Below, piece by piece: positions 14,134 through 44,076 of a stretch of DNA of 64,000 nt. How positions within the stretch are numbered: position 1 is the stretch's first letter; the number at the start of each line of letters is the position of its first letter. Origin of the DNA: a bacterium. Lineage in GTDB: Bacteria > Patescibacteriota > Minisyncoccia > JAHIHE01. The stretch is from NCBI GenBank assembly GCA_030693205.1, contig JAUYBG010000019.1:14496-78495 (forward strand), given 5' to 3'. The position numbers were made by a program, and so were the translations under genes. The notes beneath the pieces are model-generated. The model searched no databases and was not told the origin of the DNA. It saw only the letters and a program-made list of their open reading frames with translations.

Positions 14134-15747
14134 ATGAGCAAAAATCTTCAATTAAGAGAACCGGTCGTTATCTATATCGAAAAGATCAAAAAAATAAACA
14201 GGAAATCGCTGGAAAAAGAGCCGGCGGAGCGCATCAAGGTAAGCTACGCGGCGAGCACTATTTCTTTTTTGTACGAAAAAATAAGAAATACCGTTGATTA
14301 TAAAGAAGAGTTTTTGTTGCGCAAATACGCGATCGAGCGCATCTTAAACCGTCTTATTTTTATTGAAGACAAGAAAAGCGGAATAGGTGAAGCGTTGCTT
14401 TCGGATCTTATCAGGGGCAGATATTTTTTAAACGATACTATCGGCATTGATAAAATCGCCGAAACGGATCGGATCATAGAAAAGTATCTTACTCTTTTTG
14501 GCAAGATAGGATCTGTCGCTTTAAAAAAAGAAGATTTCAATAAGACCATTGAATGGTTTATCGGTATAGCGGCTTTTGAAATTGAAAAAAATTTGGTCTC
14601 TTACGATAAAGAAGAAGCGCTTTGCGAGTTTATCTACAATACCGTGTGCAAGGATATCGTGATCAAAGACGGATTTTTGAATGAAAGGCAGGAGATCACG
14701 CAGACTTACCTGGCAATTTTGAGAGCGGCTTTGCGGGCCGACAGATCGATCCTTTCGTATTATTTGTTGAAAGCTTATTGGCCGGACTGGTTTGGCGAGA
14801 ATTGGCTTTCTGTAAGCGATGAATTGTCCAAGAATATTTTTTCGACAAAAAACATTATTGATAAAGAGATCAACCATCCGGTGGCTGAAAGATTTTTGAG
14901 ATTTTTTAAGCGCCGTGCCGTGGTTTATTTTATTGTTTCCGATCTGATAGTAAAAAATGCCGGCCAAGCCGAAGAGAAAATGCTATTCTCAAAACTTGAT
15001 TTTTTGGAAGATATACAGACGGCTTGTTCGTCCAGGTATAAAAATGCGAGGGAAGTCTTATCCAGAACATTCGGGAGAAGCGTCGCGTATATTTTTATCA
15101 CCAAGATCGCCCTGGCTTTTATAATCGAGGTGCCGTATGAAATATTTACAGTCGGGAAGATTAATTATACATCATTGGGTATCAATGTTATTTTTCATCC
15201 TTCCTTGATGTATGTGATCGGCTCTTCGATCCAAATGCCGAAAGAAAAAAATACGGCGCAAATTATCCGCGAGGCGGAATACGTGGTGTATAAGAAGAAA
15301 AAATCAGAGGCCCCGCCTTATGCCAATAAATTTTCTTTTTCCCAGTCATCTTTTTCCGGCGGTTTGTTCTTTATTTTTTACGCCGCGATGTTCGTGATCA
15401 CTTTCGGGCTGATTATCACCGTGTTGAGGAAACTGGAATTCAATTTTGTCAGCGGAGCGCTTTTCGTATTTTTTATAAGCGTGGTCAGTTTTTTCGCTTA
15501 CAAGATCAGCCGGCCGGTCAGAGAGCTTATTGTAGTCGATAAAAAAGACAGATTGATCGATTCAGTGCTTGATTTTTTCTTTATTCCCGTAATGTATTTT
15601 GGCCGGTGGCTGTCTGAGAGTTTTTCCCAGATCAACATATTCGTTTTTGCTCTGGATTTTATCATTGAAGCTCCTTTCAAAACACTCATTAAGGTTTTTG
15701 ACGATTGGGTGAAATTCATGAAAGAAAAAAGAGAAGAGATAATGTAA
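14134..15747 (+). CDS. hypothetical protein with C-terminal transmembrane region (537 aa)
   Basis: Long ORF with a soluble N-terminal portion and several C-terminal hydrophobic helices; no recognisable motif. Confidence 0.45.
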   Translation: MSKNLQLREPVVIYIEKIKKINRKSLEKEPAERIKVSYAASTISFLYEKIRNTVDYKEEFLLRKYAIERILNRLIFIEDKKSGIGEALLSDLIRGRYFLNDTIGIDKIAETDRIIEKYLTLFGKIGSVALKKEDFNKTIEWFIGIAAFEIEKNLVSYDKEEALCEFIYNTVCKDIVIKDGFLNERQEITQTYLAILRAALRADRSILSYYLLKAYWPDWFGENWLSVSDELSKNIFSTKNIIDKEINHPVAERFLRFFKRRAVVYFIVSDLIVKNAGQAEEKMLFSKLDFLEDIQTACSSRYKNAREVLSRTFGRSVAYIFITKIALAFIIEVPYEIFTVGKINYTSLGINVIFHPSLMYVIGSSIQMPKEKNTAQIIREAEYVVYKKKKSEAPPYANKFSFSQSSFSGGLFFIFYAAMFVITFGLIITVLRKLEFNFVSGALFVFFISVVSFFAYKISRPVRELIVVDKKDRLIDSVLDFFFIPVMYFGRWLSESFSQINIFVFALDFIIEAPFKTLIKVFDDWVKFMKEKREEIM

Positions 15748-16896: not shown

Positions 16897-17409
16897 ATGA
16901 TAAAAAATAAATTAAAAATTCCTTTTTATCGCCAGAGAAATGAATTTGCGTGCGGTCCGGCAGCGCTTCAGATGATTTTTTCTTTTTTGGGAAAATTCAA
17001 GAAACAAGATAATTTAGCGAGGGCTTTGCATACGACAAAGGCAGGTACATACCATTCAAGCTTGATCGAAGAAGCGAGGAAGGAAGATTTTTTTTGCTAC
17101 GTCAATAATAAATCCACTATTCACGAAGTCAGGCATTTTATAAATCTGGGTTTGCCGGTTGTGGTTAATTACAACGAACCGTCAACGAATGACAGCCATT
17201 ATGCGGTAGTGGTCGGCTACGACAGGAACAAGCTCATTTTAAATGATCCATGGAACGGAAAAAATTTTAAAATGCCTGAAAATGAATTTATTTTAAGATG
17301 GCACGATTACTTGAACAAGCATACCTGTAAAAAATGGATAATGGTTGTTTCAAAAAAAGATTTTCATCTGGGAAAACAATATTTTCCATATTCTTGCTCA
17401 AAAAAATAA
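16897..17409 (+). CDS. peptidase C39-like cysteine peptidase domain protein
   Basis: YRQ...FACGPAALQMIF (catalytic Cys) and SHYAVVVGYD (His), a C39_2/papain-like arrangement; no signal peptide. Confidence 0.5.
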   Translation: MIKNKLKIPFYRQRNEFACGPAALQMIFSFLGKFKKQDNLARALHTTKAGTYHSSLIEEARKEDFFCYVNNKSTIHEVRHFINLGLPVVVNYNEPSTNDSHYAVVVGYDRNKLILNDPWNGKNFKMPENEFILRWHDYLNKHTCKKWIMVVSKKDFHLGKQYFPYSCSKK

Positions 17410-18364: not shown

Positions 18365-19618
18365 ATGCAAAATAATACCAATCCCTATCAAAGCGCTTTG
18401 ACTCAGCTCACGATCGCAGCCGGAGTTTTGAAGATCAACAAAGATATTTTGGAAATTTTAAAAGTGCCGAAAAGAGTTCTCAGGGTATTTATTCCGGTCA
18501 GAATGGACGATGGCAGTATTAAAAATTTTGAAGGATTCAGGGTTCAGCACAATGACGCGCGCGGGCCTTTTAAAGGCGGCATTAGGTTTTCGCCGATAGT
18601 TTCCATGGATGAAGTAATGGCGCTGGCAATGTGGATGACCTGGAAGACAGCGGTGGTGGGAATTCCTTATGGCGGAGCCAAAGGCGGAGTTATCGTTGAT
18701 ACAAAAAAACTTTCCAAAGGCGAACTGGAAAGATTATCCCGCGGCTATGTGCGCTCAACGCACAAATTTATCGGGCCGAATATCGATGTGCCGGCGCCGG
18801 ATATGTATACTACGCCGGAAATTATGGCCTGGATGGCCAATGAATATTCAAGAATTGTCGGAGAAAATACGCCGGCATCTTTTACCGGCAAGCCGGTGGA
18901 AGTCGGCGGATCGTTGGGCCGGGCCGATTCCACATCAGTTGGCGGGGTTTATGTCTTGGAAGAAGCGCTAAAGAAAATCAAGAAAGAAAAAAAGCATATC
19001 ACGGTCGCGATCCAGGGAATGGGAAATGTCGGCGCCAATGCGGCCAAGATTTTGTTCAATGAAGATTGCAATATTGTGGCGGTTTCCGATTCCAAGGGCG
19101 GCATAGTTTCGGAATCGGAAGGCAAGGGATTGAATATCGAAGAAGTTTTGAAATATAAAGAAAAAACCGGTTCGGTGGCCGGATTTCCCAAAACCAAAGC
19201 AATAACCAACGAAGAATTATTGATTTTGAACGTGGATGTTTTGATTCCGGCGGCGCTGGAAAACCAGATCACGGTCAAAAATGCCAAAGATATAAAAGCG
19301 AAAATCGTATTGGAATTGGCAAATGGCCCGACTACTCCGGAAGCGGATAAGATCCTGGACGCCAAAGGAATACTTTTGATTCCCGATATTTTAGCCAATG
19401 CCGGCGGAGTCTTGGTGAGTTATTTTGAATGGGTGCAAAATCGAACGGGTTATTATTGGGACGAAACGGAGGTTAACGAAAAATTAAAAAAGCAAATGAT
19501 AAAATCATTTAGCGATGTTTGGGAAAGAAAAGAGAAATATAAGGTTGACACTCGCACAGCGGCAAATATTTTGGCGCTGGAAAGAGTGGTTAAGGCGATG
19601 AAGCTACGCGGGGTGTAA
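18365..19618 (+). CDS. gdhA: glutamate dehydrogenase (Glu/Leu/Phe/Val dehydrogenase family)
   Basis: GPFKGGIRFSP and catalytic-lysine region (GIPYGGAKGG); Rossmann motif GMGNVG. Confidence 0.85.
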   Translation: MQNNTNPYQSALTQLTIAAGVLKINKDILEILKVPKRVLRVFIPVRMDDGSIKNFEGFRVQHNDARGPFKGGIRFSPIVSMDEVMALAMWMTWKTAVVGIPYGGAKGGVIVDTKKLSKGELERLSRGYVRSTHKFIGPNIDVPAPDMYTTPEIMAWMANEYSRIVGENTPASFTGKPVEVGGSLGRADSTSVGGVYVLEEALKKIKKEKKHITVAIQGMGNVGANAAKILFNEDCNIVAVSDSKGGIVSESEGKGLNIEEVLKYKEKTGSVAGFPKTKAITNEELLILNVDVLIPAALENQITVKNAKDIKAKIVLELANGPTTPEADKILDAKGILLIPDILANAGGVLVSYFEWVQNRTGYYWDETEVNEKLKKQMIKSFSDVWERKEKYKVDTRTAANILALERVVKAMKLRGV

Positions 19619-23901: not shown

Positions 23902-26496
23902 ATGAACAAAAAGAACAGAAAAGTAAAAGAAATGCAAAGAAAGATACCGTCAATGATGGCAATCTTTATTTTGCTGGCAGCCGTGATGGCAGGCATTCCA
24001 GGCGCAATTGCGGCACCAATCCCGACAATCGAATTCACTTATGTTCCGCCAGTTGGGAGTTATGATAATTTGCAAGGGAAAGTGACAAATGTTACCCCGG
24101 CGGATTATAAAGTCGCGGTCTACATCTATGTATACGGATGGTGGACAAAACCATATTTTGCATCGCCAATAACATCTATTGGCAGTGATGGAACGTGGTC
24201 TTGCGATATAACAACCGGTGGTTCCGATCAAACTGCGACGAGAGTTAAGGCATATTTGATTCCGAATGGATATAATCCACCCGGCATGAGTGGAGGAGGA
24301 GTATTTCCTGCCGAATTAAGCGCAAATGCAGTTGCCGTTGTCGAGTATGACAGAACTGTTACACCCACGCCAACACCCACGCCAACACCCACGCCCGCGG
24401 CAAAAATAGAAATAACATATATGCCGCCATTTGGTAGCATTGGTAACTTAGGTAACTTACAAGGAAAAGTTTCCAATGTAAATCCGGCGGATTATAAAGT
24501 TGCTGTTTACATTTATGTAAGCGGATGGTGGACAAAACCCAGTTTTAGTTCGCCACTGACATCGATTCAAAATAATGGTGTTTGGGAAACCTTTATAACA
24601 ACCGGTGGTTCCGATCAGTATGCGACGAGAGTTAAGGCATATTTGATTCCGAATGGATATACTCCTCCAACAATGAGCGGGCAGCAAATATTTTCAGATG
24701 AACTGGAAGCAAAAGCAGTTGCCAAAATTGAAGCTCCTAAGAGACAGGAGAGGATAATAAACTTTTCCGGACGTGATTGGATAGTGAAATACAGCGCTAT
24801 TCCAGAGGGTCCGGGATTGAATTATTTCTCTGACGGCACTGACAGTGTTCGAGTTGACGAACAAGGCCAGTTGCACTTGAAAATAATCAAAGTAGGAAAC
24901 ACCTGGTATAGTTCCGAAGTGATATCGAAAGATTCTCTCGGATATGGCGAGTACATTTTCTATCTTGCCAGCAGGGCCGACCAGATTGACAAGAATGTCG
25001 TGTTAGGAATGTTTACTTGGGATACTTTTGCTCCATCGTTTAATCATCGTGAGATAGATATCGAAATCTCAAGGTGGGGACAGGATGCCAATGATAATTC
25101 CCAATTTGTGGTACAACCTTGGAATAGAGCTAGCAATATGCACAGGTTCAATGCGGACTTTGCCGGAAATTATTCGGTGCACTCCTTTAATTGGAGCGAT
25201 TCGAAGATCAGCTTCAAGAGTTTAAGAGGACTAAATGTTTCTTCTCAAAATTCTTCCGATCTGATCAACTCCTGGGATTATATGGGCAGCGATATTCCGC
25301 CTCCGGGTGGAGAAAATGCGCGCATAAACTTATGGCTGTTTGATCCGTCCAATGTTTTGGGCAAGCCACCGTCTGACGGCAAAGAAGTCGAGGTGATCAT
25401 CAGAAAATTTAAGTTTGTTCCCCAAGGATCCGAGATCGTCTTAACCCCGAGGATATTTGTCGCTAAAAGCGCCAGTTCGGCAACTCTTCCTGTTGGAGGA
25501 GGAAATGCCAGCTACTCTTATAAAGTAGTGAATACGGGAGATTTGACCCTGTCAAATATAACGCTTATTGACGATAAGTGCGCGCCGGTTGTTTATGCCG
25601 ATGGCGACGTAAATTCCAATTCACAGCTTGAAACTACGGAAACGTGGAATTATGCTTGCGAAAAAAGAATAAACGAAACAACGACAAATATAGTGACGGC
25701 CACAGGAAACCATAGCGGATCTTCGGTATCAGATAGCGATACAGCCACAGTGACAGTTGCAGTCCCGACACCCACGCCGTATAAAGGAGGAGGCAGCGAT
25801 TCTTCTACTGGCAGTAGCGGAGGCGGTGGAAGCGGAGTTACGTCTTGCGAAAAATTTGCAAATATAAAAAAGAGCTTCAATAACGAAGTGTTTGTTTCTG
25901 TCAAGTCAAATCCTGCTGTCTATAAGTTTAAGGATTTGGAAATAGTGAAAGAAGCAGGGTTTACACCGACCTATTCCGAAGGGTTAGTAACTGCCAAAAG
26001 CGAGGATCTCCGAGGAAGGTCAGCATGTGTCTCGGTCGACGCTCCCAGTAGCACAAAAGTTGTTTATTTCAACCTTTGGGTTGGTACAAGCAATTATAGT
26101 AGTTCAAGCAAGATCAAAGACGGTTTTATCTTGTTTGGAATGCCGAAAGATCTGTCTGATAGCGATATCGGGAACATCAAGCTGATGTTTTTCAAAAATG
26201 GTATATGGAAAGACATAAATTACGAAAAAGTTGAAGAAGGAATTTATAAAGCATATGTACCAGGATTCGGAAATTTCGTTTTGGCGGAGATATTCGAATT
26301 GAAGATCGTTCCTGTAACTCCGGAAGAGATAGAAAAAATTAAATCAATGCAGAATGCCAACGTTCCTAAAGAAACAACGAAGCCTTTGCCTGTTGAACCA
26401 GTCAATACTCCCCAGCAAACGCCAGGGTTTTTCTTGGCAGGTGCAATTCTGGCAATAGCTTTCGCCTGTATCTTTGGAAGAAAGAAAAATAATTAA
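23902..26496 (+). CDS. large secreted/surface protein: signal peptide, two tandem roughly 115-aa repeats, (TP)n linker, GH16-like domain, DUF11-like repeat, C-terminal PGF-CTERM-like anchor
   Basis: N-terminal signal peptide. Repeats cover about 24013-24352 and 24400-24742, roughly 60% identical, joined by TPTPTPTPTPTP (24361-24399). EIDIE motif (HREIDIEISRWGQ) resembles the GH16 catalytic E-x-D-x-E. C-terminus is QQTPGFFLAGAILAIAFACIFGRKKNN. Confidence 0.7.
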   Translation: MNKKNRKVKEMQRKIPSMMAIFILLAAVMAGIPGAIAAPIPTIEFTYVPPVGSYDNLQGKVTNVTPADYKVAVYIYVYGWWTKPYFASPITSIGSDGTWSCDITTGGSDQTATRVKAYLIPNGYNPPGMSGGGVFPAELSANAVAVVEYDRTVTPTPTPTPTPTPAAKIEITYMPPFGSIGNLGNLQGKVSNVNPADYKVAVYIYVSGWWTKPSFSSPLTSIQNNGVWETFITTGGSDQYATRVKAYLIPNGYTPPTMSGQQIFSDELEAKAVAKIEAPKRQERIINFSGRDWIVKYSAIPEGPGLNYFSDGTDSVRVDEQGQLHLKIIKVGNTWYSSEVISKDSLGYGEYIFYLASRADQIDKNVVLGMFTWDTFAPSFNHREIDIEISRWGQDANDNSQFVVQPWNRASNMHRFNADFAGNYSVHSFNWSDSKISFKSLRGLNVSSQNSSDLINSWDYMGSDIPPPGGENARINLWLFDPSNVLGKPPSDGKEVEVIIRKFKFVPQGSEIVLTPRIFVAKSASSATLPVGGGNASYSYKVVNTGDLTLSNITLIDDKCAPVVYADGDVNSNSQLETTETWNYACEKRINETTTNIVTATGNHSGSSVSDSDTATVTVAVPTPTPYKGGGSDSSTGSSGGGGSGVTSCEKFANIKKSFNNEVFVSVKSNPAVYKFKDLEIVKEAGFTPTYSEGLVTAKSEDLRGRSACVSVDAPSSTKVVYFNLWVGTSNYSSSSKIKDGFILFGMPKDLSDSDIGNIKLMFFKNGIWKDINYEKVEEGIYKAYVPGFGNFVLAEIFELKIVPVTPEEIEKIKSMQNANVPKETTKPLPVEPVNTPQQTPGFFLAGAILAIAFACIFGRKKNN

Positions 26497-26704
26497 AAAC
26501 TATAAAATATATTAAGGCGGTAAAGGACAAAACTCTTTTAACCGTCTTTTTTTAAAATAAATAAGATTAACACTGTTTTCCGCGGAAAAAGATTAATTTC
26601 ATTTCCGTTTTTTTATTGGGTGACGTAGATTGACATTACGGTGCGTTTCTGCTACTCTTAGCTTAAATTTGCACCTTAGACAAAAAAGGCGCGAGGAGGA
26701 AAAT

Positions 26705-27508
26705 ATGAGAAAAAGTATTGGAAATATTATGATAATTATGCTTATTATAGGCATAGTTATAATGAGTGGATGTGTTGGAAAAGATACAAGTGAACTAAAA
26801 TACGGCGTTAAGAATACCACTTTGGTAACCGTTGATTCTTTGCCTTCCGGCGCAAGCGTTTGGCTTGAAAACACTGGAAAAGTCGAAGACGCTCAACGTC
26901 TCGGGGTTACGCCCTTAAATGTGGAATTGCCTAAAGATAAGGAATACACGGTTTGGCTGCAATTATCCTTGCCAGAATATCGCTTGATGACCCGTAATAT
27001 TCCGGAAATTCAGCGACGTTTAGATACTTTCGAGCGCGACGAAAAATATAATTTAGTTTTTCCCGGCGATAGCTTTTTCGAAATATATTCAAACAAGCAC
27101 CAAACATTTACAACAACCACGTATCCACCAAGGCTAGTCGTTGTAAGGATACCGCATAAATTATCCACTCTGTGGATGTTAGGCGATAAGATCAGGGTAG
27201 CGGGTATTTTTGTACCAGCTGGCATGAATTCTGACATTCTTCTGCCTTTGGCGGGAAAGGAAAGAATATATGAATATTCAGAAGAAGGTTATAGGAATGC
27301 AATGAAAAGCTACAACACTCCGCCGGATCTGGTCGAAAGATCATTTCCCTTATTGACTCGCGCCGGAGTGACATTGGTAATTTTTCCCATTGAAGCGGTT
27401 GGCAATGAGCCACCCCAAGAGATGGTACTGCGCATTACCGCGTCATCTCCCGATAATCCCGATGGTCTCGCAGAATGGGAAGTTAGGACACGCGCAAGAA
27501 CAAGCTAA
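26705..27508 (+). CDS. putative lipoprotein, hypothetical
   Basis: GGAGGA SD 6 nt upstream of the ATG at 26705; signal peptide with lipobox-like IMSGC. The in-frame upstream extension to 26630 has no SD and is rejected. Confidence 0.5.
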   Translation: MRKSIGNIMIIMLIIGIVIMSGCVGKDTSELKYGVKNTTLVTVDSLPSGASVWLENTGKVEDAQRLGVTPLNVELPKDKEYTVWLQLSLPEYRLMTRNIPEIQRRLDTFERDEKYNLVFPGDSFFEIYSNKHQTFTTTTYPPRLVVVRIPHKLSTLWMLGDKIRVAGIFVPAGMNSDILLPLAGKERIYEYSEEGYRNAMKSYNTPPDLVERSFPLLTRAGVTLVIFPIEAVGNEPPQEMVLRITASSPDNPDGLAEWEVRTRARTS

Positions 27509-29157: not shown

Positions 29158-30579
29158 ATGCTCACGAAAAAACAAAAAAATGTTCTTGATTATATTCAGG
29201 AATATTTTCAAAAAAATGGTTTTAGCCCTTCGTATAATGAAATAAGAAAACGGTTTAAGCTTTCTTCCGTTTCCACGGTGAATCATTATATAAAAATTCT
29301 TCAAAAAAAGGGATATATTAAACAAGAGAAAAATACCGCTCGCGCCGTAGAAGTTAATTCACATGAAAGTTTAGTTAGTATTCCGTTAAAGGGATACATC
29401 GCCGCCGGCCAGCCTATTGAAGCGGTTGAAGAATATGAAACAATAGCTGTGCCTAAAAATTTACTTTCTTCGTCTGGCAAGCATTTCGCTTTAAGTGTTA
29501 AAGGGGATAGCATGATTGACGAGGGTATTTTTGATGGCGACACTGTGATTATTAGAAAACAAAATACAGTTGAGAATGGAGAAACAGCAGTTGCATTGAT
29601 AAATGGCAATGAGGTTACTCTCAAAAAAATTTATAAAGAAAAAAACAGAGTTAGATTGCAACCTGCTAACCCTAAGCTAAATCCCTTTTTTGTAAAGAAC
29701 GTACTTATTCAGGGTAAGGTGATTAGTACTATTAGAACTATTGAGGAACGGGTGAAAAAGGAAAAAAAAGAGGAACCTGTTTATTACGAAAAACCAGGGT
29801 TTAAGCTTTATCAAGCAAATTGTTTGAATATTCTCGTTGCGCTTCCTGAAAATTCAGTTGATATGGTTTTCGCTGATCCGCCTTATCTTCTTTCTAACGG
29901 TGGTTTCACTGTTCACGCCGGGCGGCGCGTTAGTGTAAATAAAGGCGAATGGGATAAAAGTAATGGACTGAAGAAAGATTTTGAATTTCACCTCGAATGG
30001 ATACAAGCTGTCAGACGTGTATTAAAGCCGCAAGGCACGCTTTGGATTAGTGGAACTTATCACTCGATTTATCAATGCGGATTTGCGCTTCAAGTCGCGG
30101 GATTCCATGTTCTTAATGATATTGCGTGGTTTAAACCGAATGCATCGCCGAATCTTAGTTGCCGTTTTTTTACTGCTAGTCACGAAACACTTATTTGGGC
30201 TAGAAAAGATAAAAAAGCAAAGCATATTTTTAATTATGATTTAATGAAAAATGGTACTTGGCCGGAAGATGCGCTAAAGAAGCCGGGACTTCAAATGCGT
30301 TCAGTTTGGTCCATGGGAACGCCTAAACCAATCGAAAAGAAGTTTGGTAAGCATCCAACGCAAAAACCCGAAGATTTATTAAAAAGAATTGTGCTAGCAA
30401 GCACAAACAAAGGCGATCTTATTCTCGATCCTTTTACTGGAAGTTCAACAACGGGGATTGCGGCATATTTGTTCGGCAGAAAATTTATTGGTATAGATCT
30501 TGATAAAAAGTTTTTAGATGTATCAATAAAACGATTCGAGGAGTTAGATAAAAATTTGAAAAATAAAAAGCCAAAATGA
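29158..30579 (+). CDS. fusion protein: complete LexA-type repressor (wHTH, Ala-Gly autocleavage site, S24 Ser/Lys peptidase) fused to a beta-class N6-adenine/N4-cytosine DNA methyltransferase
   Basis: Residues 1-195 align with LexA: DNA-binding helix region, cleavage site GYIAAGQPIEA (cf. VAAGEPLLA), catalytic Ser in VKGDSMIDEGIFDGDTV and Lys in EVTLKKIYKE. After a K/E-rich linker come MTase motif IV (FADPPYLL) and motif I (ILDPFTGSSTTGIAA) in the beta-class order IV then I. Confidence 0.75.
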   Translation: MLTKKQKNVLDYIQEYFQKNGFSPSYNEIRKRFKLSSVSTVNHYIKILQKKGYIKQEKNTARAVEVNSHESLVSIPLKGYIAAGQPIEAVEEYETIAVPKNLLSSSGKHFALSVKGDSMIDEGIFDGDTVIIRKQNTVENGETAVALINGNEVTLKKIYKEKNRVRLQPANPKLNPFFVKNVLIQGKVISTIRTIEERVKKEKKEEPVYYEKPGFKLYQANCLNILVALPENSVDMVFADPPYLLSNGGFTVHAGRRVSVNKGEWDKSNGLKKDFEFHLEWIQAVRRVLKPQGTLWISGTYHSIYQCGFALQVAGFHVLNDIAWFKPNASPNLSCRFFTASHETLIWARKDKKAKHIFNYDLMKNGTWPEDALKKPGLQMRSVWSMGTPKPIEKKFGKHPTQKPEDLLKRIVLASTNKGDLILDPFTGSSTTGIAAYLFGRKFIGIDLDKKFLDVSIKRFEELDKNLKNKKPK

Positions 30580-30965
30580 AAAATACACATTCTATAAAAA
30601 TACCAGGTTATGTATCAGGATGGACTTATAAATACTTTCATCAGTCTGCCTATGAACCTCCTTGGAATTTTCCAAATAAAAAAGTTATTACATTTTTATT
30701 CCAATTTAAAAGAAAGGAAAAAATAAAACTTTTTAGAGGAATAAATAAGTACAATAAAGATACATCGTATATTGTGAGTTGGACATATGATAAAGAAATT
30801 GCATTAAACTACATAGAGGATGGTGGTAAAATTATTGAAAAGAATTTTTATTCAAATGATATTTTATTAGATACTACTGTACTGAATAACGAACAAAAGA
30901 TATTGTTGGGTTATGATTATAAAATTGACGATAAAGAAGTTTTAATAATAGAAAATAATAATTAA
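30576..30965 (+). CDS. hypothetical protein (129 aa) translationally coupled to the LexA-MTase gene
   Basis: ATG overlaps the MTase TGA stop (ATGA); Lys/Tyr-rich, no recognisable domain. Confidence 0.45.
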   Translation: MKNTHSIKIPGYVSGWTYKYFHQSAYEPPWNFPNKKVITFLFQFKRKEKIKLFRGINKYNKDTSYIVSWTYDKEIALNYIEDGGKIIEKNFYSNDILLDTTVLNNEQKILLGYDYKIDDKEVLIIENNN

Positions 30966-30974
30966 ATTAAAAAT

Positions 30975-31745
30975 ATGGCAAACGGTAGATCTTGGAAAAA
31001 AATATTTGATGATTATAAAATTCTAGATCATGATTTTAATGAATCGCCATTTTCACTTTCAGCAATGCAAATTAAAAAAGCTTGCCAAAGATTTAAGGAA
31101 ACTAGTGAAAAAGAGATTCGTATTTTATGCAAGCAAGATAGTAGAGAAGACAGACCAGACATTTTTCAGAAACATAATCTTTTTTTGCTTCCCGTAAAAA
31201 ATGGTTACTATAATATTATTAGGGGTGAGGGATATATTGATATTCCGGATATTAAAAAAGAAGTATCGATTTATCCTTCAAAACTCGACTTTATACCTGA
31301 CACAACAAAGGTTGGTAATTCAGAAATGCAGCACCTTGATTATGCTTACGCCGCTAGTTTAATACGAACATTTACAAACGATCCGTCGCTGGTATTAACT
31401 ATAAGGGGTAGAAAATATACTCCAGATTTTGATTTTTTTGTCGGAAAACAACAGATTAAAGTATCAAGCGTGCAAACAGAAGTTGACGCTGGTTATGAGG
31501 GAAAAAATCAAGTCGTGTTGATTGAGGCAAAAAATTTTAGTGCGATAAATGTTATTATTCGCCAACTTTATTATCCGTTTAGGCAATGGCAGGAAAAAAC
31601 AAAGAAAAAAGTTATTACACTTTTCTTCGATAAAAATCACAACGAAGATGTTTATTCTATATGGCAGTTTGAGTTTGAAGATCCAAAAAATTACAATAGT
31701 ATCAGGTTAGTAAAATCTGGTAAGTTTAGAATTAAGGATAAATAA
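30975..31745 (+). CDS. putative PD-(D/E)xK nuclease (candidate Type II restriction endonuclease partner of the MTase)
   Basis: PD...ExK-type signature (TPDFDFF ... EVDAGYEGKNQVVLIEAKN); sits directly downstream of the methyltransferase. Confidence 0.45.
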   Translation: MANGRSWKKIFDDYKILDHDFNESPFSLSAMQIKKACQRFKETSEKEIRILCKQDSREDRPDIFQKHNLFLLPVKNGYYNIIRGEGYIDIPDIKKEVSIYPSKLDFIPDTTKVGNSEMQHLDYAYAASLIRTFTNDPSLVLTIRGRKYTPDFDFFVGKQQIKVSSVQTEVDAGYEGKNQVVLIEAKNFSAINVIIRQLYYPFRQWQEKTKKKVITLFFDKNHNEDVYSIWQFEFEDPKNYNSIRLVKSGKFRIKDK

Positions 31746-31846
31746 AGCTTAGAGTAGACTATTGCGGAAAAAGGTTTTAGTAAGATTAAAAAAAGAAGAT
31801 TGGAAGATCATGTTTTTTAAAATTGTTAAAATTAATTAAATAATTT

Positions 31847-33511
31847 ATGGCAACATTACAGGATTTTTCACTTTTAAACACCTACATTGAGAAGTATAAA
31901 AAAGATTATAAATTACAAAATCTAGCTACGGCCTTTCCTTTATTTGCCTTGGATGCAATTTTAAGCTTGCAAGAAGATGAAATGAAAGATTCTATAACCG
32001 ATGGTGGAAATGATGGTGGAATTGATGCAGTCTATATAGATGAACATTTATCTCCTGCAAAAATTTATTTCTTTCAGTTTAAATATAAAACAAAGTATGG
32101 AGGTATTAACTGTAATTTTCCAGCAGTCGAGATAGATAAAATTTTCAATACAATTAAAGATATTTTACATAAAGAAAAAAATTTAGAGAAATACGTTAAC
32201 CCTATATTATATCAAAAAATTAAGCACATATGGAATATATTTGAAAATGAAAATCCCAAATTCGTGATTTGCTTGTGTTCAAACTTAGAGAATAATTTAA
32301 TAAAAGCACAACAAGATCGTTTTGAACAACAAATTAATTCTTATCAAAATTTCCAAATAGAATATTATAATATAAATAATTTTGTTGCCCTAATTCTTAA
32401 TAAAGGGAAAAAGCAGATAGATGGAAAAATAAAAGCAATAGATACAAATTATTTTTCTAGGATTGATGGAACCGTAAGAGCGTTAATAGCAAATGTTGAT
32501 GCTGATGAATTATTAAGTTTGGTTAAGGACGAAACAAGTGGTAAAATAAAGGAGGATATTTTAAACGATAATGTAAGAATTTATTTACAGGCAAGGACTA
32601 GAATAAATAGAAGTATAAAAGATACCGCTTTAGATAAAGCAAATAATTATAAATTCTTTTATTTTAATAATGGTATTACTCTGACCTGCGATAGTTTTAC
32701 ATATACGCCTTCCCAGAGAGCACCTTTGATAGAACTAACAAATATTCAAATAGTTAATGGAGGACAGACAATTCATTCTTTGTATGATGCATACAAAGAG
32801 GATAAAGAAGCAATGAAAAGCATTACTCTTTTATTAAGAATTTATGAAACAAAAAATTTAGAACTATCACAACAAATAGCAGAGTACACAAATAGTCAAA
32901 ATCCAGTTAAGAGTAGAGATATAAGATCGAACGATTATATGCAGAAAAAATTAGAAAGCGAACTTTTGCAAAAAGGTTATTTTTATGAAAGAAAGAAAAA
33001 TTATTATAAAGATAAATCCAAAAATAAACGTTTGGATTCTGAAAAAATAGGACAGGTTTTAATGGCATTTTATAGTGAAATGCCAGCAGAAGCCAAAAAT
33101 AAAAAACAATTAATATTTAGCGATAAATACGAAGAAGTGTTTACTGATGATTTAACTGCAGAAAAGATTCTCTTACCTTTTCTGCTTTTTGATAAAATCG
33201 AAGGCGAGAAAAATAAAAAAAGGGTTAAAATATCCAAAATGAAAAGTGAACAAAAAATAGAAAAAGAGTCTTATGTTTTATATGGCTCTTATTATATTCT
33301 ATATTTTTTGAAAAAAATATCAGAAAAAAATGGATTATCCATTGATTACAAAAATAGAAATAAAATTTTTAACAATTATTTTATTGTTGTTAAAAAAATT
33401 AAAGAATTCATCGAGGAAGAAAAAAAAGAAAATGCGAAATATTTTCATGGCGATTTCTTTAAGGGTAATAAGCTTAAAGAAATGATCGAAAATTATATTT
33501 CTAATTATTAA
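31847..33511 (+). CDS. AIPR-like abortive-infection family protein (N-terminal restriction-endonuclease-fold motif), putative
   Basis: 554 aa; N-terminal ITDGGNDGGIDAVYID...FQFKYK matches the D...(E/Q)xK core seen in AIPR/Mrr-like N-termini; long K/E-rich helical C-terminus. Confidence 0.4.
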   Translation: MATLQDFSLLNTYIEKYKKDYKLQNLATAFPLFALDAILSLQEDEMKDSITDGGNDGGIDAVYIDEHLSPAKIYFFQFKYKTKYGGINCNFPAVEIDKIFNTIKDILHKEKNLEKYVNPILYQKIKHIWNIFENENPKFVICLCSNLENNLIKAQQDRFEQQINSYQNFQIEYYNINNFVALILNKGKKQIDGKIKAIDTNYFSRIDGTVRALIANVDADELLSLVKDETSGKIKEDILNDNVRIYLQARTRINRSIKDTALDKANNYKFFYFNNGITLTCDSFTYTPSQRAPLIELTNIQIVNGGQTIHSLYDAYKEDKEAMKSITLLLRIYETKNLELSQQIAEYTNSQNPVKSRDIRSNDYMQKKLESELLQKGYFYERKKNYYKDKSKNKRLDSEKIGQVLMAFYSEMPAEAKNKKQLIFSDKYEEVFTDDLTAEKILLPFLLFDKIEGEKNKKRVKISKMKSEQKIEKESYVLYGSYYILYFLKKISEKNGLSIDYKNRNKIFNNYFIVVKKIKEFIEEEKKENAKYFHGDFFKGNKLKEMIENYISNY

Positions 33512-33608
33512 AAGGCAAAGGCGTCAAGTACTTTATTTAATATCAAGTAGAAACAGCACACGAAATCTTGTTGTGAAAATTTAATAATAATTAATTTTTA
33601 TTATAGAC

Positions 33609-34325
33609 ATGCAATTTCTTAAAAAGCAGGCTGAAAAATTTGACAAAAAGGCGGAAAAAATATTGATACTTATTGTTCTCGTTTCTTTTTTAGTTGGTTA
33701 TTTTATTGGAAAAAATAATTCTTTAGATAGTTTGTATGGTTTCTTTATAGCTGGAATTTTCTTGGGAATAGTATCTATGCTTTTAGTTTTACAAAGAGAT
33801 AAATTTGTAAAAAAATCTAGGGATTATAGTAAAGGTTTTCAGGGAGAAAAATATTTTAAGGAATTTTTAGATCAGAACAAGAGTTTTTGTGGTTTTGAAT
33901 ACATTGATGATATAAAATTAGAGTATGGCAATGCCGATTTTTTAATTGTGAACGATAATGGAGTTTTTTGTATTGAAGTAAAAAATACTACAGGGAAAAT
34001 AACTTATGATGTTAAAAAAGATAGTTTGCTTTGTAACTTTAAACTTTTTGACAAGGATTATTTAAAGCAGGTTAAACGAAATTCTGTATTTATTCGTAAT
34101 ATTATCAAGGAAAAAATTAATGAATTTCAATATGTTCATCCGGTTTTAGTATTCTCAGGTCTTGGATCTAATTTGGAAACAGGTGAAAAAATAGGAGATG
34201 TTTATGTCTTGAGACCAGAAGAATTATTGATATTATTAAAGCAAAACATAAATCAAAAACTGAATAAAGAATTACAAGGTAAAATTATAAAATTGATGCG
34301 GGAATATAAAGAGTCGAAAAGATAA
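33609..34325 (+). CDS. NERD (nuclease-related domain) protein with N-terminal transmembrane helices
   Basis: Two TM helices, then GNADFLIVNDNGVFCIEVKN (D...D...ExK), the NERD/PD-(D/E)xK signature. Confidence 0.5.
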   Translation: MQFLKKQAEKFDKKAEKILILIVLVSFLVGYFIGKNNSLDSLYGFFIAGIFLGIVSMLLVLQRDKFVKKSRDYSKGFQGEKYFKEFLDQNKSFCGFEYIDDIKLEYGNADFLIVNDNGVFCIEVKNTTGKITYDVKKDSLLCNFKLFDKDYLKQVKRNSVFIRNIIKEKINEFQYVHPVLVFSGLGSNLETGEKIGDVYVLRPEELLILLKQNINQKLNKELQGKIIKLMREYKESKR

Positions 34326-34394
34326 TTATCACACGCATCTTTAGTTCGCGTGAATGGTGGAAAATATATAATAAAAATTAGGATCAATTTTAAT

Positions 34395-34454
34395 TTATCG
34401 TTAAAAAATTCATATGGCGCGGATATTTAGTTTTGCTTTGGGAAATATTTGGCG
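34395..34454 (+). repeat. 60-bp perfect direct repeat, copy 1
   Basis: TTATCGTTAAAAAATTCATATGGCGCGGATATTTAGTTTTGCTTTGGGAAATATTTGGCG is identical to 35562-35621. Confidence 0.8.
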
Positions 34455-34645
34455 ATGGCACTCCTTCGCTTACCTCCTACGCTCCTCTTTCGCCAAAGGC
34501 TTCAGAAGGACGCAGTAAAGCTACGGAAGGTCAAGAAAGCTTCGGAAGCGCACAGCGAAAATTTATCCCTCACCAAATAATTAATTCAAGATTTTTTTAA
34601 TTATTTAAACTGAGTTAATATTTTTATCCATCGACTGACTTATAT

Positions 34646-34655
34646 TGCTATAGCA
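34646..34655. promoter_or_regulatory. palindromic operator-like site TGCTATAGCA (copy 1), embedded in a longer ACTGA...TCAGT palindrome
   Basis: Perfect 10-bp palindrome, one of three related copies around the PaaX-like regulator gene. Confidence 0.35.
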
Positions 34656-34730
34656 TAATTTTTCAGTTGGTATCTTTCCATCGCGGCCGGGTTTTTTTAA
34701 AAAATCATTATTATTACTACTGATTTTTCT

Positions 34731-34740
34731 TGCTATAGCA
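34731..34740. promoter_or_regulatory. palindromic operator-like site TGCTATAGCA (copy 2), upstream of the PaaX-like gene
   Basis: Perfect palindrome followed by TAAAAATTCAGTTATAATAT, which contains a TATAAT -10-like element. Confidence 0.35.
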
Positions 34741-34843
34741 TAAAAATTCAGTTATAATATAAAAAAGATGTCGTAAGGAAAAGACATAGCGATACGGTGG
34801 TATAATTTTCACAAAAACAGAATTAAGCAAAGAATTAAATAAA

Positions 34844-35413
34844 ATGAAAGAAAAAGCTATAAAAGCTTCCAAGATAATTTTAAAAGGCATATTATTAGGC
34901 GGCGCGGTTGCGATAGCTGCCACTTCGCCGAATTTTGTTCAAAAAATATTGCCCAAGATACTGAAACGGGCTTCCTTTGAGTGGAAAAAATACAAGAATA
35001 AGAAAAAGTTTTTAAATTCTTTTAACTATCTTAAAAGTTCCGGCCTGATCAATATGGAATACAAAGGTAATCAGTTATATGTGTCTCTGACCGAGGAAGG
35101 AAAAAAGAAGGTTAAAAAATACTGGATTGACGATCTCAAGATAACAAAACCGGAAAAATGGGATGGCAAGTGGAGAATTATGATCTTTGACGTAAAAGAT
35201 AAGCAAAAAATAAAAAGAGAAGCGCTGAGAGGCAAGATAAAGGAGCTTGGATTGTATCAGCTTCAAAAAAGCGTTTGGGTTTGTCCGTATAATTTTGAGA
35301 AAGAAGCGGGGATTTTAAGAGATTTTTTTGGGTTTAATTTTGAAGAAATGAAATTAATTATAGCTTCGGAAATAGAAGGGGATGGAGCAATCCGTCAACA
35401 TTTCAAGCTTTAA
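34844..35413 (+). CDS. PaaX-like protein (wHTH plus Cas2-like fold C-terminal domain) with N-terminal hydrophobic segment
   Basis: KWDGKWRIMIFDVKDKQKIKREALRGKIKELGLYQLQKSVWVCPY matches the PaaX/Cas2-like beta-alpha-beta pattern (hhhYDV...R..L...G.RLQ.SVW). Confidence 0.45.
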   Translation: MKEKAIKASKIILKGILLGGAVAIAATSPNFVQKILPKILKRASFEWKKYKNKKKFLNSFNYLKSSGLINMEYKGNQLYVSLTEEGKKKVKKYWIDDLKITKPEKWDGKWRIMIFDVKDKQKIKREALRGKIKELGLYQLQKSVWVCPYNFEKEAGILRDFFGFNFEEMKLIIASEIEGDGAIRQHFKL

Positions 35414-35433
35414 TAACCATAACTGAATTTTCT

Positions 35434-35443
35434 TGCCATAGCA
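35434..35443. promoter_or_regulatory. palindromic operator-like site TGCCATAGCA (copy 3, one mismatch) inside a roughly 36-bp palindrome
   Basis: AACTGAATTTTCTTGCCATAGCATAAATTTTCAGTT is near-perfectly palindromic; located just downstream of the PaaX-like gene. Confidence 0.35.
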
Positions 35444-35561
35444 TAAATTTTCAGTTAGCGCATTGTATTTTTATATAAGTCAAGATAATTCAAGCGTTTG
35501 CTTGTTTGCCGACAGACACAAAATTCGGCGGTGATTTTTTGCCAAAAGTTTCTAATTTAAC

Positions 35562-35621
35562 TTATCGTTAAAAAATTCATATGGCGCGGATATTTAGTTT
35601 TGCTTTGGGAAATATTTGGCG
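35562..35621 (+). repeat. 60-bp perfect direct repeat, copy 2
   Basis: Identical to 34395-34454; lies 34 nt upstream of ORF 35655. Confidence 0.8.
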
Positions 35622-35654
35622 GTGGAAATTTAGCAATGATTAATTTTAAAAAAC

Positions 35655-35960
35655 ATGGAGACAAATGAAAGTGAAAAATTTTTTACAAACGAAGAATACC
35701 ATAAGAATAATTATTTGGAGATGACTAGAAAAACAGAAGAACAAATGGCCGTAATTGAAGAAAAATACAAAAAGGGAAATGTTTTTATATGGGAAGGTTT
35801 TTTCAATGAAATAAAAGATATGGAACAAGCGGAAGTAAGTGCGTATATCAAAGAAGAACTTCAATATATGGAGCCAATAGATCGTTTAACCGTTAAAAGT
35901 TGCGTTGGAGTTCTTATGGCGAACGAAGCGGAAAAAAAGAAATATGGATTTACATATTAA
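35655..35960 (+). CDS. hypothetical protein (101 aa)
   Basis: Acidic, helical; no recognisable domain. Confidence 0.4.
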   Translation: METNESEKFFTNEEYHKNNYLEMTRKTEEQMAVIEEKYKKGNVFIWEGFFNEIKDMEQAEVSAYIKEELQYMEPIDRLTVKSCVGVLMANEAEKKKYGFTY

Positions 35961-36005
35961 AATATAAACGAGCGGTCGGTGTCTGCTTATTTAAATAGAT
36001 AAATT

Positions 36006-44055: not shown

Positions 44056-44076
44056 CATTATTTTTAAAAATTATTT

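What the first reader, a model, noticed from the sequence alone, without database searches (positions are those of the whole stretch)
23902..26496. Large surface protein with tandem duplicated domains, (TP)6 linker, GH16-like catalytic motif and a PGF-CTERM-like anchor
The 864-aa ORF has a signal peptide followed by two roughly 115-aa repeats about 60% identical; both contain ADYKVAVYIYV.GWWTKP...TTGGSDQ.ATRVKAYLIPNGY. A Thr-Pro microsatellite (24361-24399) joins them. After that come a domain with EIDIE (HREIDIEISRWGQ), matching the GH16 E-x-D-x-E catalytic signature, then a DUF11-like beta domain and a Gly/Ser-rich stretch. The C-terminus is TPGFFLAGAILAIAFACIFGRKKNN, which is PGF, a hydrophobic helix and then basic residues. 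That tripartite tail is the hallmark of archaeosortase-type PGF-CTERM sorting signals and is unexpected in a bacterium. The internal duplication and coding microsatellite also make this a likely phase- or length-variable surface glycan hydrolase or adhesin.
Basis: partly seen in the sequence, partly recalled or inferred. Interest (0 to 1): 0.55.

Follow-up and report, generated by a model that had tools for sequence, protein, structure and literature searches.

The report
Bacterial surface glucanase with archaeal anchor
A tiny-genome (Patescibacteria) bacterium encodes a cell-surface sugar-cutting enzyme whose catalytic half and membrane-anchor half both look borrowed from methane-cycling archaea, which suggests gene transfer across domains and perhaps a physical association with such archaea.

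Summary
It has:
- a signal peptide;
- two 113-aa beta-sandwich repeats (67% aa, 76% nt identical) joined by a (TP)6 linker;
- a domain that keeps the GH16 E-x-D-x-E triad and folds as a GH16 jelly-roll (pLDDT 95.6; the top 50 PDB matches listed are all GH16-family/GH16-fold entries);
- a DUF7507 domain and a G/S linker;
- a PGF + helix + RKK tail.

The window is bacterial (DnaX, RF2, FtsX, LexA, MraY), and its RF2 clusters with Patescibacteria. The anchor module is archaeal in type: named relatives are almost all Methanoperedens or Methanosarcinales. The tail scores 24.9 bits on a profile of 86 such archaeal PGF tails, although it misses NCBI's TIGR04126. The catalytic module's closest non-Patescibacteria relatives are also archaeal (77%, then 59%). 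Orthologues sit in syntenic bacterial contigs, so this is not a misassembly.

Most likely it is a surface-anchored beta-glucanase acquired from Methanoperedens-like archaea. Whether the tail is processed is unknown, because no sortase-type enzyme lies in the 64 kb and the rest of the genome could not be read. Phase variation is not supported.

The parts
23902..24012 (+). Sec-type signal peptide (aa 1-37): basic n-region, hydrophobic core, AIA|AP cleavage-like site
   Evidence: Read directly from the sequence. No signal-peptide predictor was available. An SD-like AGGA lies 8-20 nt upstream of the ATG.
24013..24351 (+). R1: first copy of a ~113-aa beta-sandwich module (putative carbohydrate-binding)
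   Evidence: 67% aa identity to R2, E 1e-53. Present in 118 of 120 homologues at 1-4 copies. Also fused to GH17 enzymes (P0119, P0115).
24361..24396 (+). (TP)6 linker, encoded by the 12-nt unit ACACCCACGCCA x 2.9
   Evidence: TRF: 100% matches, period 12. The unit is in frame, so slippage would change linker length only.
24397..24747 (+). R2: second copy of the beta-sandwich module
   Evidence: AF2 model m7a0bea370615, pLDDT 83. Only weak Ig-V-like matches in the PDB, E >= 7e-3. No sequence relatives in the PDB.
24751..25437 (+). GH16-like catalytic domain (aa 284-512)
   Evidence: The A1 profile hits GH16 lichenases at E 9e-6. AF2 pLDDT is 95.6. The top 50 Foldseek PDB matches are all GH16-family/GH16-fold entries; the best is 1gbg at E 1.1e-9, TMt 0.72.
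25051..25065 (+). Catalytic motif E384-I-D386-I-E388
   Evidence: Invariant in 32 homologues. Aligned on the lichenase EIDIEF motif.
25444..25734 (+). DUF7507 (PF24346) / DUF11-like beta domain, aa 515-611
   Evidence: Pfam 29.1 bits against a cutoff of 27, E 1.1e-6.
25765..25836 (+). PT then Gly/Ser-rich linker (aa 622-645)
   Evidence: Read directly from the sequence. It marks the upstream boundary of the swapped pre-PGF cassette.
25855..26283 (+). PGF-pre-PGF domain (TIGR04213), aa 652-794, ending in YVPGFGNFVLAEI
   Evidence: NCBIfam 46.6 bits against a cutoff of 28. 218 HMMER relatives. Named relatives are nearly all Methanoperedens or Methanosarcinales.
26284..26421 (+). Pro/Thr/Glu/Lys-rich stalk (aa 795-840)
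   Evidence: Read directly from the sequence. It aligns with the spacers of archaeal relatives.
26422..26496 (+). PGF-CTERM-like tail: P841-G-F, hydrophobic helix F844-G859, RKKNN, stop codon
   Evidence: Aligned with the PGF tails of relatives. Scores 24.9 bits on a profile of 86 archaeal PGF tails, where shuffles reach at most 3.2. TIGR04126 is not reported; Heimdall-CTERM scores 17-19 bits, below its cutoff.

Best explanation
The gene encodes a cell-surface-anchored, probably retaining, endo-beta-glucanase (or transglycosylase) of a Patescibacteria (CPR) bacterium.

Proposed mechanism:
1. The protein is exported by Sec through its N-terminal signal peptide.
2. Two beta-sandwich R modules, joined by a flexible TP linker, probably hold a beta-glucan-type polysaccharide.
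3. A divergent GH16-fold domain with E384/D386/E388 cuts that polysaccharide.
4. A DUF7507 beta domain, a G/S linker, a PGF-pre-PGF domain and a Pro/Thr-rich stalk act as a spacer holding the enzyme away from the membrane.
5. The C-terminal PGF + helix + RKK tail keeps it attached to the cell.

Both halves of the protein appear to come from Methanoperedens/Methanosarcinales-like archaea by cross-domain gene transfer into this bacterial lineage. The pre-PGF cassette has since been exchanged between orthologues.

Shown here: the domain architecture, the GH16 fold and triad, the archaeal affinity of both halves, and residence in a bacterial genome. Inferred: the substrate (beta-1,3 or mixed-linkage glucan), the direction of transfer, and that in the bacterium the tail most likely works as a plain C-terminal membrane anchor unless a cognate sortase-like enzyme exists elsewhere in the genome.
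For: GH16 relationship:
- E384, D386 and E388 are invariant in 32 homologues.
- The family profile hits PDB lichenases at E 9e-6, with EIDIE aligned on the catalytic EIDIEF.
- The AF2 model has pLDDT 95.6, and all 50 top Foldseek PDB matches are GH16-family/GH16-fold entries.
- 4 of 32 family members reach Pfam PF00722.

R module as a separate binding module:
- It occurs in 1-4 copies across homologues.
- It is also appended to GH17 beta-1,3-glucanases.

Bacterial host:
- The window carries UvrA and LexA, MraY-type GT4, UvrC and DnaX, and RF2 and FtsX.
- Its RF2 falls in a cluster at 90% identity with 'Patescibacteria group bacterium' proteins.

Not a chimera:
- Orthologue P0002 lies upstream of Fic and a LexA 88.6% identical to the window's.
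- Orthologue P0003 lies in a contig with Amidase_2/SpoIID genes.

Archaeal affinity of the anchor:
- TIGR04213 scores 46.6 bits.
- Named relatives are Methanoperedens, Methanosarcinales, Methanocomedens or 'uncultured archaeon', with one bacterial label.
- This domain is abundant in ANME-2a/2d genomes, which also carry ArtA (PMC5244752).
- The tail aligns with the PGF tails of these relatives. It scores 24.9 bits on their profile, against 23.7-49.5 for the training tails and at most 3.2 for shuffles.

Archaeal affinity of the catalytic half:
- The best genome hit is 'uncultured archaeon LFW-24' at 77% identity, in a FlaI/KaiC_arch_3/AhbA/AhbD context.
- Next come Methanoperedens, Methanosarcinales and Methanobacteriota at 59%.
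- In an NJ tree the CPR clade is sister to LFW-24, then to Methanoperedens.
Against: - The window protein itself does not reach Pfam PF00722 or TIGR04126.
- The substrate and activity are untested. GH16-fold proteins include inactive lectin-like members.
- GC (0.43) and GC3 (0.40) of the gene are typical of the window, so composition gives no independent sign of transfer.
- The NJ tree has no support values, and the R+GH16 unit is spread over many bacterial phyla. The direction of transfer for the catalytic half is therefore less secure than for the anchor.
- Taxonomy rests on MAG labels.
- The PGF motif varies among the four bacterial orthologues (PGF, PDF, SGF, PEF). That fits a relaxed, unprocessed anchor, but also shows the tail may no longer be a true sorting signal.
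Confidence: 0.6

Rival explanations
1. A true sorting system was transferred. The bacterium also carries an archaeosortase/exosortase-family enzyme elsewhere in its genome. That enzyme cleaves the PGF tail and attaches the protein covalently to a lipid or wall component, as ArtA does in archaea.
For: - The tail fits the archaeal PGF-tail profile at 24.9 bits.
- It keeps the canonical order of pre-PGF domain, spacer, then PGF tail.
- A second, unrelated small protein in the sister genome (L084 3924-4496) ends in a similar SPGI + helix + RSRKKDK tail. Several substrates are what a dedicated sorting system would predict.
Against: - No such enzyme was found among the 41 window ORFs that were scanned against Pfam and/or NCBIfam.
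- The PG of PGF is not conserved among the four orthologues (PDF, SGF, PEF). From general knowledge, ArtA processing in Haloferax depends on this motif.
- No paper links archaeosortases with CPR or Patescibacteria.
- Bacterial membranes lack the archaeal lipids used by the ArtA pathway (general knowledge).
Confidence: 0.17
2. Assembly or binning artefact: the gene is really archaeal (Methanoperedens-like) and was joined to a bacterial contig by misassembly.
For: Both halves have their closest outside relatives in archaea. The exact protein is not on record in the protein collection, although neighbouring genes of the same MAG are.
Against: - Bacterial genes flank it on both sides within one contig.
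- Three other assemblies carry orthologues (80-87% identical in the GH16 domain). Two of them (P0002 in L084, P0003 in L001) lie in bacterial gene contexts, and L084 is syntenic with the window (Fic; LexA 88.6% identical). The third (P0001, L085) is a 4.5-kb contig with only a spermine-synthase neighbour, which says little.
- The gene's GC and GC3 equal the window mean.
Confidence: 0.03
3. Non-catalytic adhesin or lectin: the GH16-fold domain and the R modules only bind glycans, for example on a host cell surface, and the protein serves attachment rather than hydrolysis.
For: - GH16-fold pseudo-enzymes exist; Rv0315, described in the PDB as a 'pseudo beta-1,3-glucanase', is among the structural matches.
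- Patescibacteria are episymbionts that need adhesins (PMC10936435).
- The architecture, with several beta-sandwich modules on a stalk, resembles an adhesin.
Against: The E-x-D-x-E triad is invariant across 32 homologues from many phyla. That argues for retained catalysis. The same unit occurs with dockerins, T9SS tails and GH17 partners typical of polysaccharide-degrading enzymes.
Confidence: 0.12
4. One reading: a phase- or length-variable surface protein, driven by the coding microsatellite and the internal duplication.
For: A perfect 12-nt x 2.9 repeat encodes the TP linker. R copy number ranges from 1 to 4 across the family.
Against: - The repeat unit is a multiple of three, so slippage cannot cause a frameshift.
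- R1 and R2 are only 76% identical at DNA level, too diverged for frequent recombination.
- The three orthologues all have one R copy and no TP tract.
- No close relatives were found in the metagenome collection for comparing tract lengths.
Confidence: 0.05

Closest known systems
GH16 lichenases (1,3-1,4-beta-glucanases) of Bacillus/Paenibacillus (PDB 1gbg, 1mac, 1byh, 3o5s)
   Same: They share the beta-jelly-roll fold (TM 0.66-0.73). They share the catalytic E-I-D-I-E strand without the extra 'bulge' residue, and the profile alignment places EIDIE on EIDIEF.
   Different: Identity is only 18-19%. The window protein does not reach Pfam PF00722. It belongs to a large uncharacterised clade that is almost always preceded by the R module. 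Substrate is unknown.
PGF-pre-PGF domain-containing cell-surface proteins of Candidatus Methanoperedens / Methanosarcinales (e.g. P0305, P0350, P0366)
   Same: Same C-terminal arrangement: pre-PGF domain (TIGR04213), Pro/Thr-rich spacer, then PGF + helix + basic tail.
   Different: Those proteins are archaeal, and their genomes carry archaeosortase A (PMC5244752). This one is in a Patescibacteria genome. Its pre-PGF domain is a divergent subtype (46.6 bits, against 147-174 bits for canonical ones).
Archaeosortase A / PGF-CTERM system (Haloferax volcanii S-layer glycoprotein; Haft et al. 2012, J Bacteriol 194:36, cited from memory and via PMC5244752)
   Same: A tripartite C-terminal signal with PGF at the start of the helix.
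   Different: TIGR04126 does not report this tail. The host is bacterial. No ArtA was found in the window. The PG of the motif is not conserved among orthologues.
R-GH16-dockerin protein of 'uncultured archaeon LFW-24' (L004 5557-6873, 438 aa)
   Same: It is the closest relative of the catalytic half outside Patescibacteria: 77% identity in the GH16 domain, with the same signal peptide - R - GH16 order.
   Different: It has a single R copy. It ends in dockerin-like repeats instead of DUF7507, pre-PGF and a PGF tail.
LPXTG / sortase A surface proteins of Gram-positive bacteria
   Same: A C-terminal hydrophobic helix plus basic tail on a secreted surface protein of a bacterium expected to have a single membrane (general knowledge about Patescibacteria; not tested here). 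TIGR01167 scores 16.2-17.7 bits on the tail alone, against a cutoff of 15.9.
   Different: That match covers only profile positions 8-33 of 34, so the start of the profile is unmatched, and no LPXTG-like pentapeptide is present or conserved.

Membership tests
Glycoside hydrolase family 16 (CAZy GH16 / Pfam PF00722) | Concanavalin-like beta-jelly-roll fold | tested here: met
   AF2 model pLDDT 95.6. The 50 best Foldseek PDB matches are all GH16-family/GH16-fold entries; the best is 1gbg at E 1.1e-9, TMt 0.72.
Glycoside hydrolase family 16 (CAZy GH16 / Pfam PF00722) | Catalytic E-x-D-x(0,1)-E motif on one beta-strand | tested here: met
   E384-I-D386-I-E388 is invariant in 32 homologues and aligns with the lichenase EIDIEF.
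Glycoside hydrolase family 16 (CAZy GH16 / Pfam PF00722) | Score above the curated Pfam PF00722 threshold | tested here: not met
   No PF00722 hit at E <= 1 for the whole protein, nor at E <= 0.01 for the domain alone. 4 of 32 family members do match, best E 2e-6.
Glycoside hydrolase family 16 (CAZy GH16 / Pfam PF00722) | Demonstrated glycosidase or transglycosylase activity | not testable with these tools
   Needs biochemistry.
PGF-CTERM sorting signal (TIGR04126) / archaeosortase A substrate | Tripartite extreme C-terminus: PGF motif, hydrophobic helix, basic cluster | tested here: met
   The tail is P841-G-F, then FLAGAILAIAFACIFG, then RKKNN. It aligns column for column with the PGF tails of relatives.
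PGF-CTERM sorting signal (TIGR04126) / archaeosortase A substrate | Score above the TIGR04126 cutoff (24.5 bits) | tested here: not met
   TIGR04126 is not reported even at E <= 10 for the tail alone. Caveat: archaeal-type relatives with clear PGF tails also reach only 12.9-15.8 bits, so the model is insensitive to this tail type.
PGF-CTERM sorting signal (TIGR04126) / archaeosortase A substrate | Similarity to PGF tails of the same protein family in archaea (home-made profile of 86 tails) | tested here: met
   The window tail scores 24.9 bits. Training tails score 23.7-49.5, 200 shuffles reach at most 3.2, and other C-terminal helices in the window score 1.4-3.5.
PGF-CTERM sorting signal (TIGR04126) / archaeosortase A substrate | Cognate archaeosortase A encoded in the same genome | tested here: inconclusive
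   None among the 41 window ORFs scanned against Pfam and/or NCBIfam. Only 64 kb of the genome could be read, and contig extension failed.
PGF-CTERM sorting signal (TIGR04126) / archaeosortase A substrate | Archaeal host | tested here: not met
   The window encodes UvrA and LexA, MraY-type GT4, UvrC and DnaX, and RF2 and FtsX. Its RF2 clusters with Patescibacteria.
PGF-pre-PGF domain (TIGR04213) | Score above the curated cutoff (28 bits), located just N-terminal of a PGF-type tail | tested here: met
   46.6 bits, E 3.4e-12, aa 652-794. Orthologues score 40.8 (P0001) and 147.2 (P0003) bits.
DUF7507 (PF24346) | Score above the Pfam gathering threshold (27 bits) | tested here: met
   29.1 bits, E 1.1e-6, aa 515-611, covering profile positions 1-104 of 105.
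LPXTG / sortase substrate (TIGR01167) | LPXTG-like pentapeptide preceding the helix | tested here: not met
   The TIGR01167 match (16.2-17.7 bits) spans only profile positions 8-33 of 34, so the start of the profile is unmatched. No LPXTG-like motif is conserved in the four orthologues.
Phase-variable (contingency) gene | Repeat tract whose unit is not a multiple of 3, or polymorphic tract length between reads or strains | tested here: not met
   The unit is 12 nt and in frame. Polymorphism could not be examined, because no close relatives carry the tract.

The most novel reading that the evidence does not exclude
This Patescibacteria lineage is an episymbiont or parasite of Methanoperedens/ANME-2-like archaea. 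It uses a host-derived anchor module (pre-PGF domain plus PGF tail) to dock into, or mimic components of, the host's cell envelope. The tail may even be handled by the host's archaeosortase. The attached GH16-like enzyme would remodel host or matrix glycans. Under this reading, the swap of pre-PGF cassettes between otherwise 85%-identical orthologues records adaptation to different hosts.
Probability: 0.12. Interest if true: 0.85.

Novelty: new variant of a known kind. Interest (0 to 1): 0.55.

Why it matters
PGF-pre-PGF domains and PGF-type tails are hallmarks of archaeal surface proteins, especially in Methanosarcinales and ANME. I found no report of them in Patescibacteria in the searchable literature.

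A bacterial gene built from two archaeal-affiliated halves is concrete evidence for cross-domain transfer of surface machinery. It also gives a testable genomic marker for which Patescibacteria live with methane-cycling archaea. Cross-domain parasitism of methanogens by Patescibacteria has been shown only recently (PMC9763046, PMC10936435, PMC12281837).

Both would be of interest for carbohydrate-active enzyme classification.

Tried and rejected
Searches that found nothing:
1. Exact-sequence look-ups of the protein, including three alternative start codons, were not on record. NCBI's own name for it is therefore unknown.
2. A word-index homology search with the C-terminal 238 aa returned nothing. 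This was a sensitivity failure: a full HMMER scan and a profile search later found hundreds of relatives.
3. A metagenome scan for close relatives gave only 45-52% identical partial matches, so copy number and TP-tract length could not be compared.

Attempts blocked by the tools:
4. Extending the contig beyond the window to look for a sortase returned only a 16.8-kb Logan contig lying inside the window, or nothing.

Ideas considered and rejected or found uninformative:
6. The R profile against PDB sequences gave only noise (importin, E > 0.2).
7. The weak Heimdall-CTERM matches (17-19 bits, cutoff 24) are a generic consequence of the helix plus basic tail. Archaeal controls give the same.
8. 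GC and GC3 as a transfer signal were uninformative.
9. The promoter and terminator scan gave counts equal to shuffled expectation.
Full report
**Observation**

The ORF listing gives one 864-aa ORF at 23902..26496 on the + strand.
- A basic N-terminus is followed by a hydrophobic core and AIA|AP, which reads as a Sec signal peptide. No predictor was available, so this is taken from the sequence only.
- Two repeats, R1 (aa 38-150) and R2 (aa 166-282), are 67% identical over 113 aa (blastp E 1e-53) and 76% identical over 272 nt.
- A (TP)6 linker is encoded by a perfect 12-nt unit x 2.9 at 24361-24395.
- The string HREIDIEISRWGQ is present, with E384, D386 and E388.
- A DUF7507 domain (PF24346) covers aa 515-611 at 29.1 bits against a cutoff of 27. 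DUF11 matches only at E 0.23.
- A Gly/Ser-rich stretch follows.
- The C-terminus is TPGFFLAGAILAIAFACIFGRKKNN.

**Host**

The window is bacterial. It encodes UvrA and a LexA fusion, an MraY-type GT4 glycosyltransferase, UvrC, DnaX (pol III tau/gamma) and RmuC, and RF2 (PCRF + RF-1), FtsX and bacterial-type GluRS.

Exact look-ups identify the source as an NCBI MAG labelled only 'bacterium' (proteins MDP30577xx, locus tags Q8N37_*, contig 89,861 bp). Its RF2 shares a cluster at 90% identity with three 'Patescibacteria group bacterium' RF2 proteins.

**The EIDIE domain**

The window protein does not reach Pfam PF00722. Even the isolated domain fails, although 4 of 32 homologues match, with best E 2e-6.

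Other evidence supports a GH16 relationship.
- A profile of 32 homologues (A1) has E384, D386 and E388 invariant.
- That profile hits Bacillus and Paenibacillus GH16 lichenases in the PDB at E 9e-6 to 1e-3. The alignment places EIDIE on the catalytic EIDIEF.
- AlphaFold2 with this alignment gives pLDDT 95.6 and pTM 0.92.
- All 50 best Foldseek matches in the PDB are GH16-family/GH16-fold entries. The best is 1gbg at E 1.1e-9, TMt 0.72, 18% identity.

The domain is therefore a distant member of the GH16 fold with an intact triad. From general knowledge of GH16, an E-x-D-x-E strand without the extra 'bulge' residue is the lichenase/XET type. This predicts a retaining endo-glycanase or transglycosylase. 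The substrate is not known.

**The R repeats**

The R module occurs in 118 of 120 homologues, in 1 to 4 copies. It almost always precedes the GH16-like domain. It is also found at either end of GH17 beta-1,3-glucanases (P0119, P0115).

It has no sequence relatives in the PDB. Its model (pLDDT 83) is a beta-sandwich with only weak Ig-V-like structural matches, E >= 7e-3 and TM about 0.45-0.5. The motif GWWTKP and the T of TTGG.D are (near-)invariant.

I infer a carbohydrate-binding module, probably for a beta-glucan, because of its GH16 and GH17 partners. This is inference only.

**The anchor**

*Curated models.* NCBI's TIGR04126 does not report the tail, even at E <= 10. The only matches are Heimdall-CTERM (17-19 bits, cutoff 24) and the helix part of the LPXTG-anchor model. 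This negative result carries little weight. Relatives with unmistakable PGF tails also score only 12.9-15.8 bits on TIGR04126 and 11-18 bits on Heimdall-CTERM.

*Relatives.* A full HMMER scan with aa 646-864 found 218 relatives. Many end in PGF + helix + R/K. A profile search that returns source names listed almost only Candidatus Methanoperedens, Methanosarcinales archaeon, Methanocomedens and 'uncultured archaeon', plus one 'Marinimicrobia' label. A published survey reports this domain as abundant in ANME-2a/2d and related genomes, which also carry archaeosortase A (PMC5244752).

*Direct comparison of the tail.* In a multiple alignment, the window's tail lines up with the PGF tails of these relatives. 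I built a profile from 86 such tails, with consensus TKKTPGFEAVLAIAGLSAVYLLRRKRR. Scores on it were as follows.

| Sequence | Score (bits) |
|---|---|
| Window tail | 24.9 |
| Training tails | 23.7-49.5 |
| 200 shuffles of the window tail | at most 3.2 |
| Other C-terminal helices in the window | 1.4-3.5 |

The C-terminal 220 aa is therefore an archaeal-type module of pre-PGF domain, spacer and PGF tail.

**Origin**

*Catalytic half.* The R+GH16-like unit is widespread: a scan of GTDB representative genomes gave at least 570 loci in many bacterial phyla and several archaea. The best match to the window's domain is 'uncultured archaeon LFW-24' at 77% identity. That gene (signal peptide - R - GH16 - dockerin, 438 aa) sits among FlaI-like, KaiC_arch_3, AhbA and AhbD genes. 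Next come Methanoperedens, Methanosarcinales and Methanobacteriota at 59%. A neighbour-joining tree, without support values, places the four bacterial sequences as sister to LFW-24 and then to Methanoperedens.

*Not a misassembly.* Only three proteins share the full architecture (P0001-P0003).
- P0002 lies upstream of Fic and a LexA 88.6% identical to the window's.
- P0003 lies in an NCBI contig with Amidase_2/SpoIID and other bacterial genes.

The gene is thus a stable resident of this bacterial lineage. Its GC (0.43) and GC3 (0.40) equal the window mean. That is uninformative because, from memory, Methanoperedens genomes have similar GC.

*Direction.* The most economical reading is transfer from Methanoperedens-like archaea into Patescibacteria. 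This is firm for the anchor module and probable for the catalytic half.

**Mosaic structure**

Identity of the window protein to its orthologues varies sharply by segment.

| Segment | vs P0002/P0003 | vs P0001 |
|---|---|---|
| GH16 domain | 86-87% | 80% |
| DUF7507 | 82-83% | 65% |
| pre-PGF domain | 22-24% | 74% |
| Tail | 60-72% | 52% |

Two pre-PGF subtypes have therefore been exchanged as a cassette, bounded by the G/S linker and the stalk. P0002/P0003 carry the canonical type (147 bits for P0003). The window and P0001 carry a divergent type (46.6 and 40.8 bits).

In the P0002 genome, a separate 190-aa gene directly downstream encodes signal peptide + R + PT linker + a similar tail, SPGILTAGGIFAFAIALIFLRSRKKDK. 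At least two different proteins of this lineage therefore use this kind of tail.

**Mechanism and open step**

I conclude that this is a Sec-exported, surface-anchored GH16-like glycanase held on a long stalk. Whether the tail is cleaved is open.
- For a plain anchor: no sortase, exosortase or archaeosortase is among the 41 window ORFs scanned against Pfam and/or NCBIfam. The PG of the motif drifts among orthologues (PGF, PDF, SGF, PEF). Bacteria lack archaeal lipids (general knowledge).
- For real processing: the tail fits the archaeal profile well, and a second protein carries a similar tail.
- Only 64 kb of the genome was readable, so the genome-wide test could not be done.

**Phase or length variation**

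This is not supported.
- The repeat unit is 12 nt and in frame.
- R1 and R2 are diverged at 76% nt identity.
- The orthologues have one R copy and no TP tract.
- No closer relatives were found.

**Context and assessment**

Patescibacteria that parasitise methanogenic archaea have been described recently (PMC9763046, PMC10936435, PMC12281837). No paper in the library links PGF-CTERM or archaeosortases with Patescibacteria/CPR. This gene could therefore mark a CPR-Methanoperedens association, but that remains speculation (about 12%).

I rate the finding a new variant of known kinds: a GH16-fold enzyme and an archaeal PGF-type anchor, combined in an unexpected host. Interest is moderate, 0.55.

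Noticed in passing
window 29158-30579 (+); L084 9583-10971: A single 473-aa ORF fuses LexA (aa 2-195, TIGR00498 190 bits) to a CcrM-like N6-adenine DNA methyltransferase (aa 217-465). In the related genome, LexA is a separate 195-aa gene (88.6% identical) followed by a DpnI-type methyl-dependent restriction enzyme.
   Followed up: partly
window ~30000-36700: A low-GC island (GC 0.26-0.32, against about 0.41 elsewhere) holds DUF6996/DUF6997, an AIPR abortive-infection protein (31847-33511) and a NERD nuclease (33609-34325). It looks like an acquired defence island.
   Followed up: partly
window 25855-26283 compared with P0001-P0003: The pre-PGF domain has been swapped as a cassette between orthologues. 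It is 22-24% identical to P0002/P0003, while the flanking GH16 and DUF7507 domains are 82-87% identical and the tail 60-72%. P0001 shares the window's subtype (74%).
   Followed up: yes
L084 3924-4496: Directly downstream of orthologue P0002 is a stand-alone 190-aa gene: signal peptide, one R module (59% identical to R1), a PT-rich linker and a similar tail (SPGI + helix + RSRKKDK). It is a second candidate substrate of the same anchoring route.
   Followed up: partly
window 43267-43980 and 43985-44056: A LAGLIDADG-like ORF ends 4 nt before a tRNA-Gln(CTG) gene. A second tRNA-Gln(TTG) is at 13862-13934.
   Followed up: no
window 62122-63219 (-) and 18365-19618 (+): A myo-inositol-1-phosphate synthase gene, and a glutamate dehydrogenase whose best NCBIfam model is the archaeal GdhA_Arch (552 bits, below its 750 cutoff). 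These may be further archaeal-affiliated genes in this Patescibacteria contig.
   Followed up: no
window 16897-17409 and 56545-57912 (-): Two Peptidase_C39-like proteins are present. One lies next to a thioredoxin gene and a truncated-looking MFS gene. The 537-aa ORF at 14134-15747 has no family match at all.
   Followed up: no
window 26630-27508 (+): The 292-aa ORF just downstream of the target has no Pfam or NCBIfam match. It has a lipoprotein-like N-terminus (…IVIMSGC). It is not conserved next to the orthologues, which instead have a conserved 288-289-aa secreted protein upstream (79% identical between L084 and L001).
   Followed up: partly
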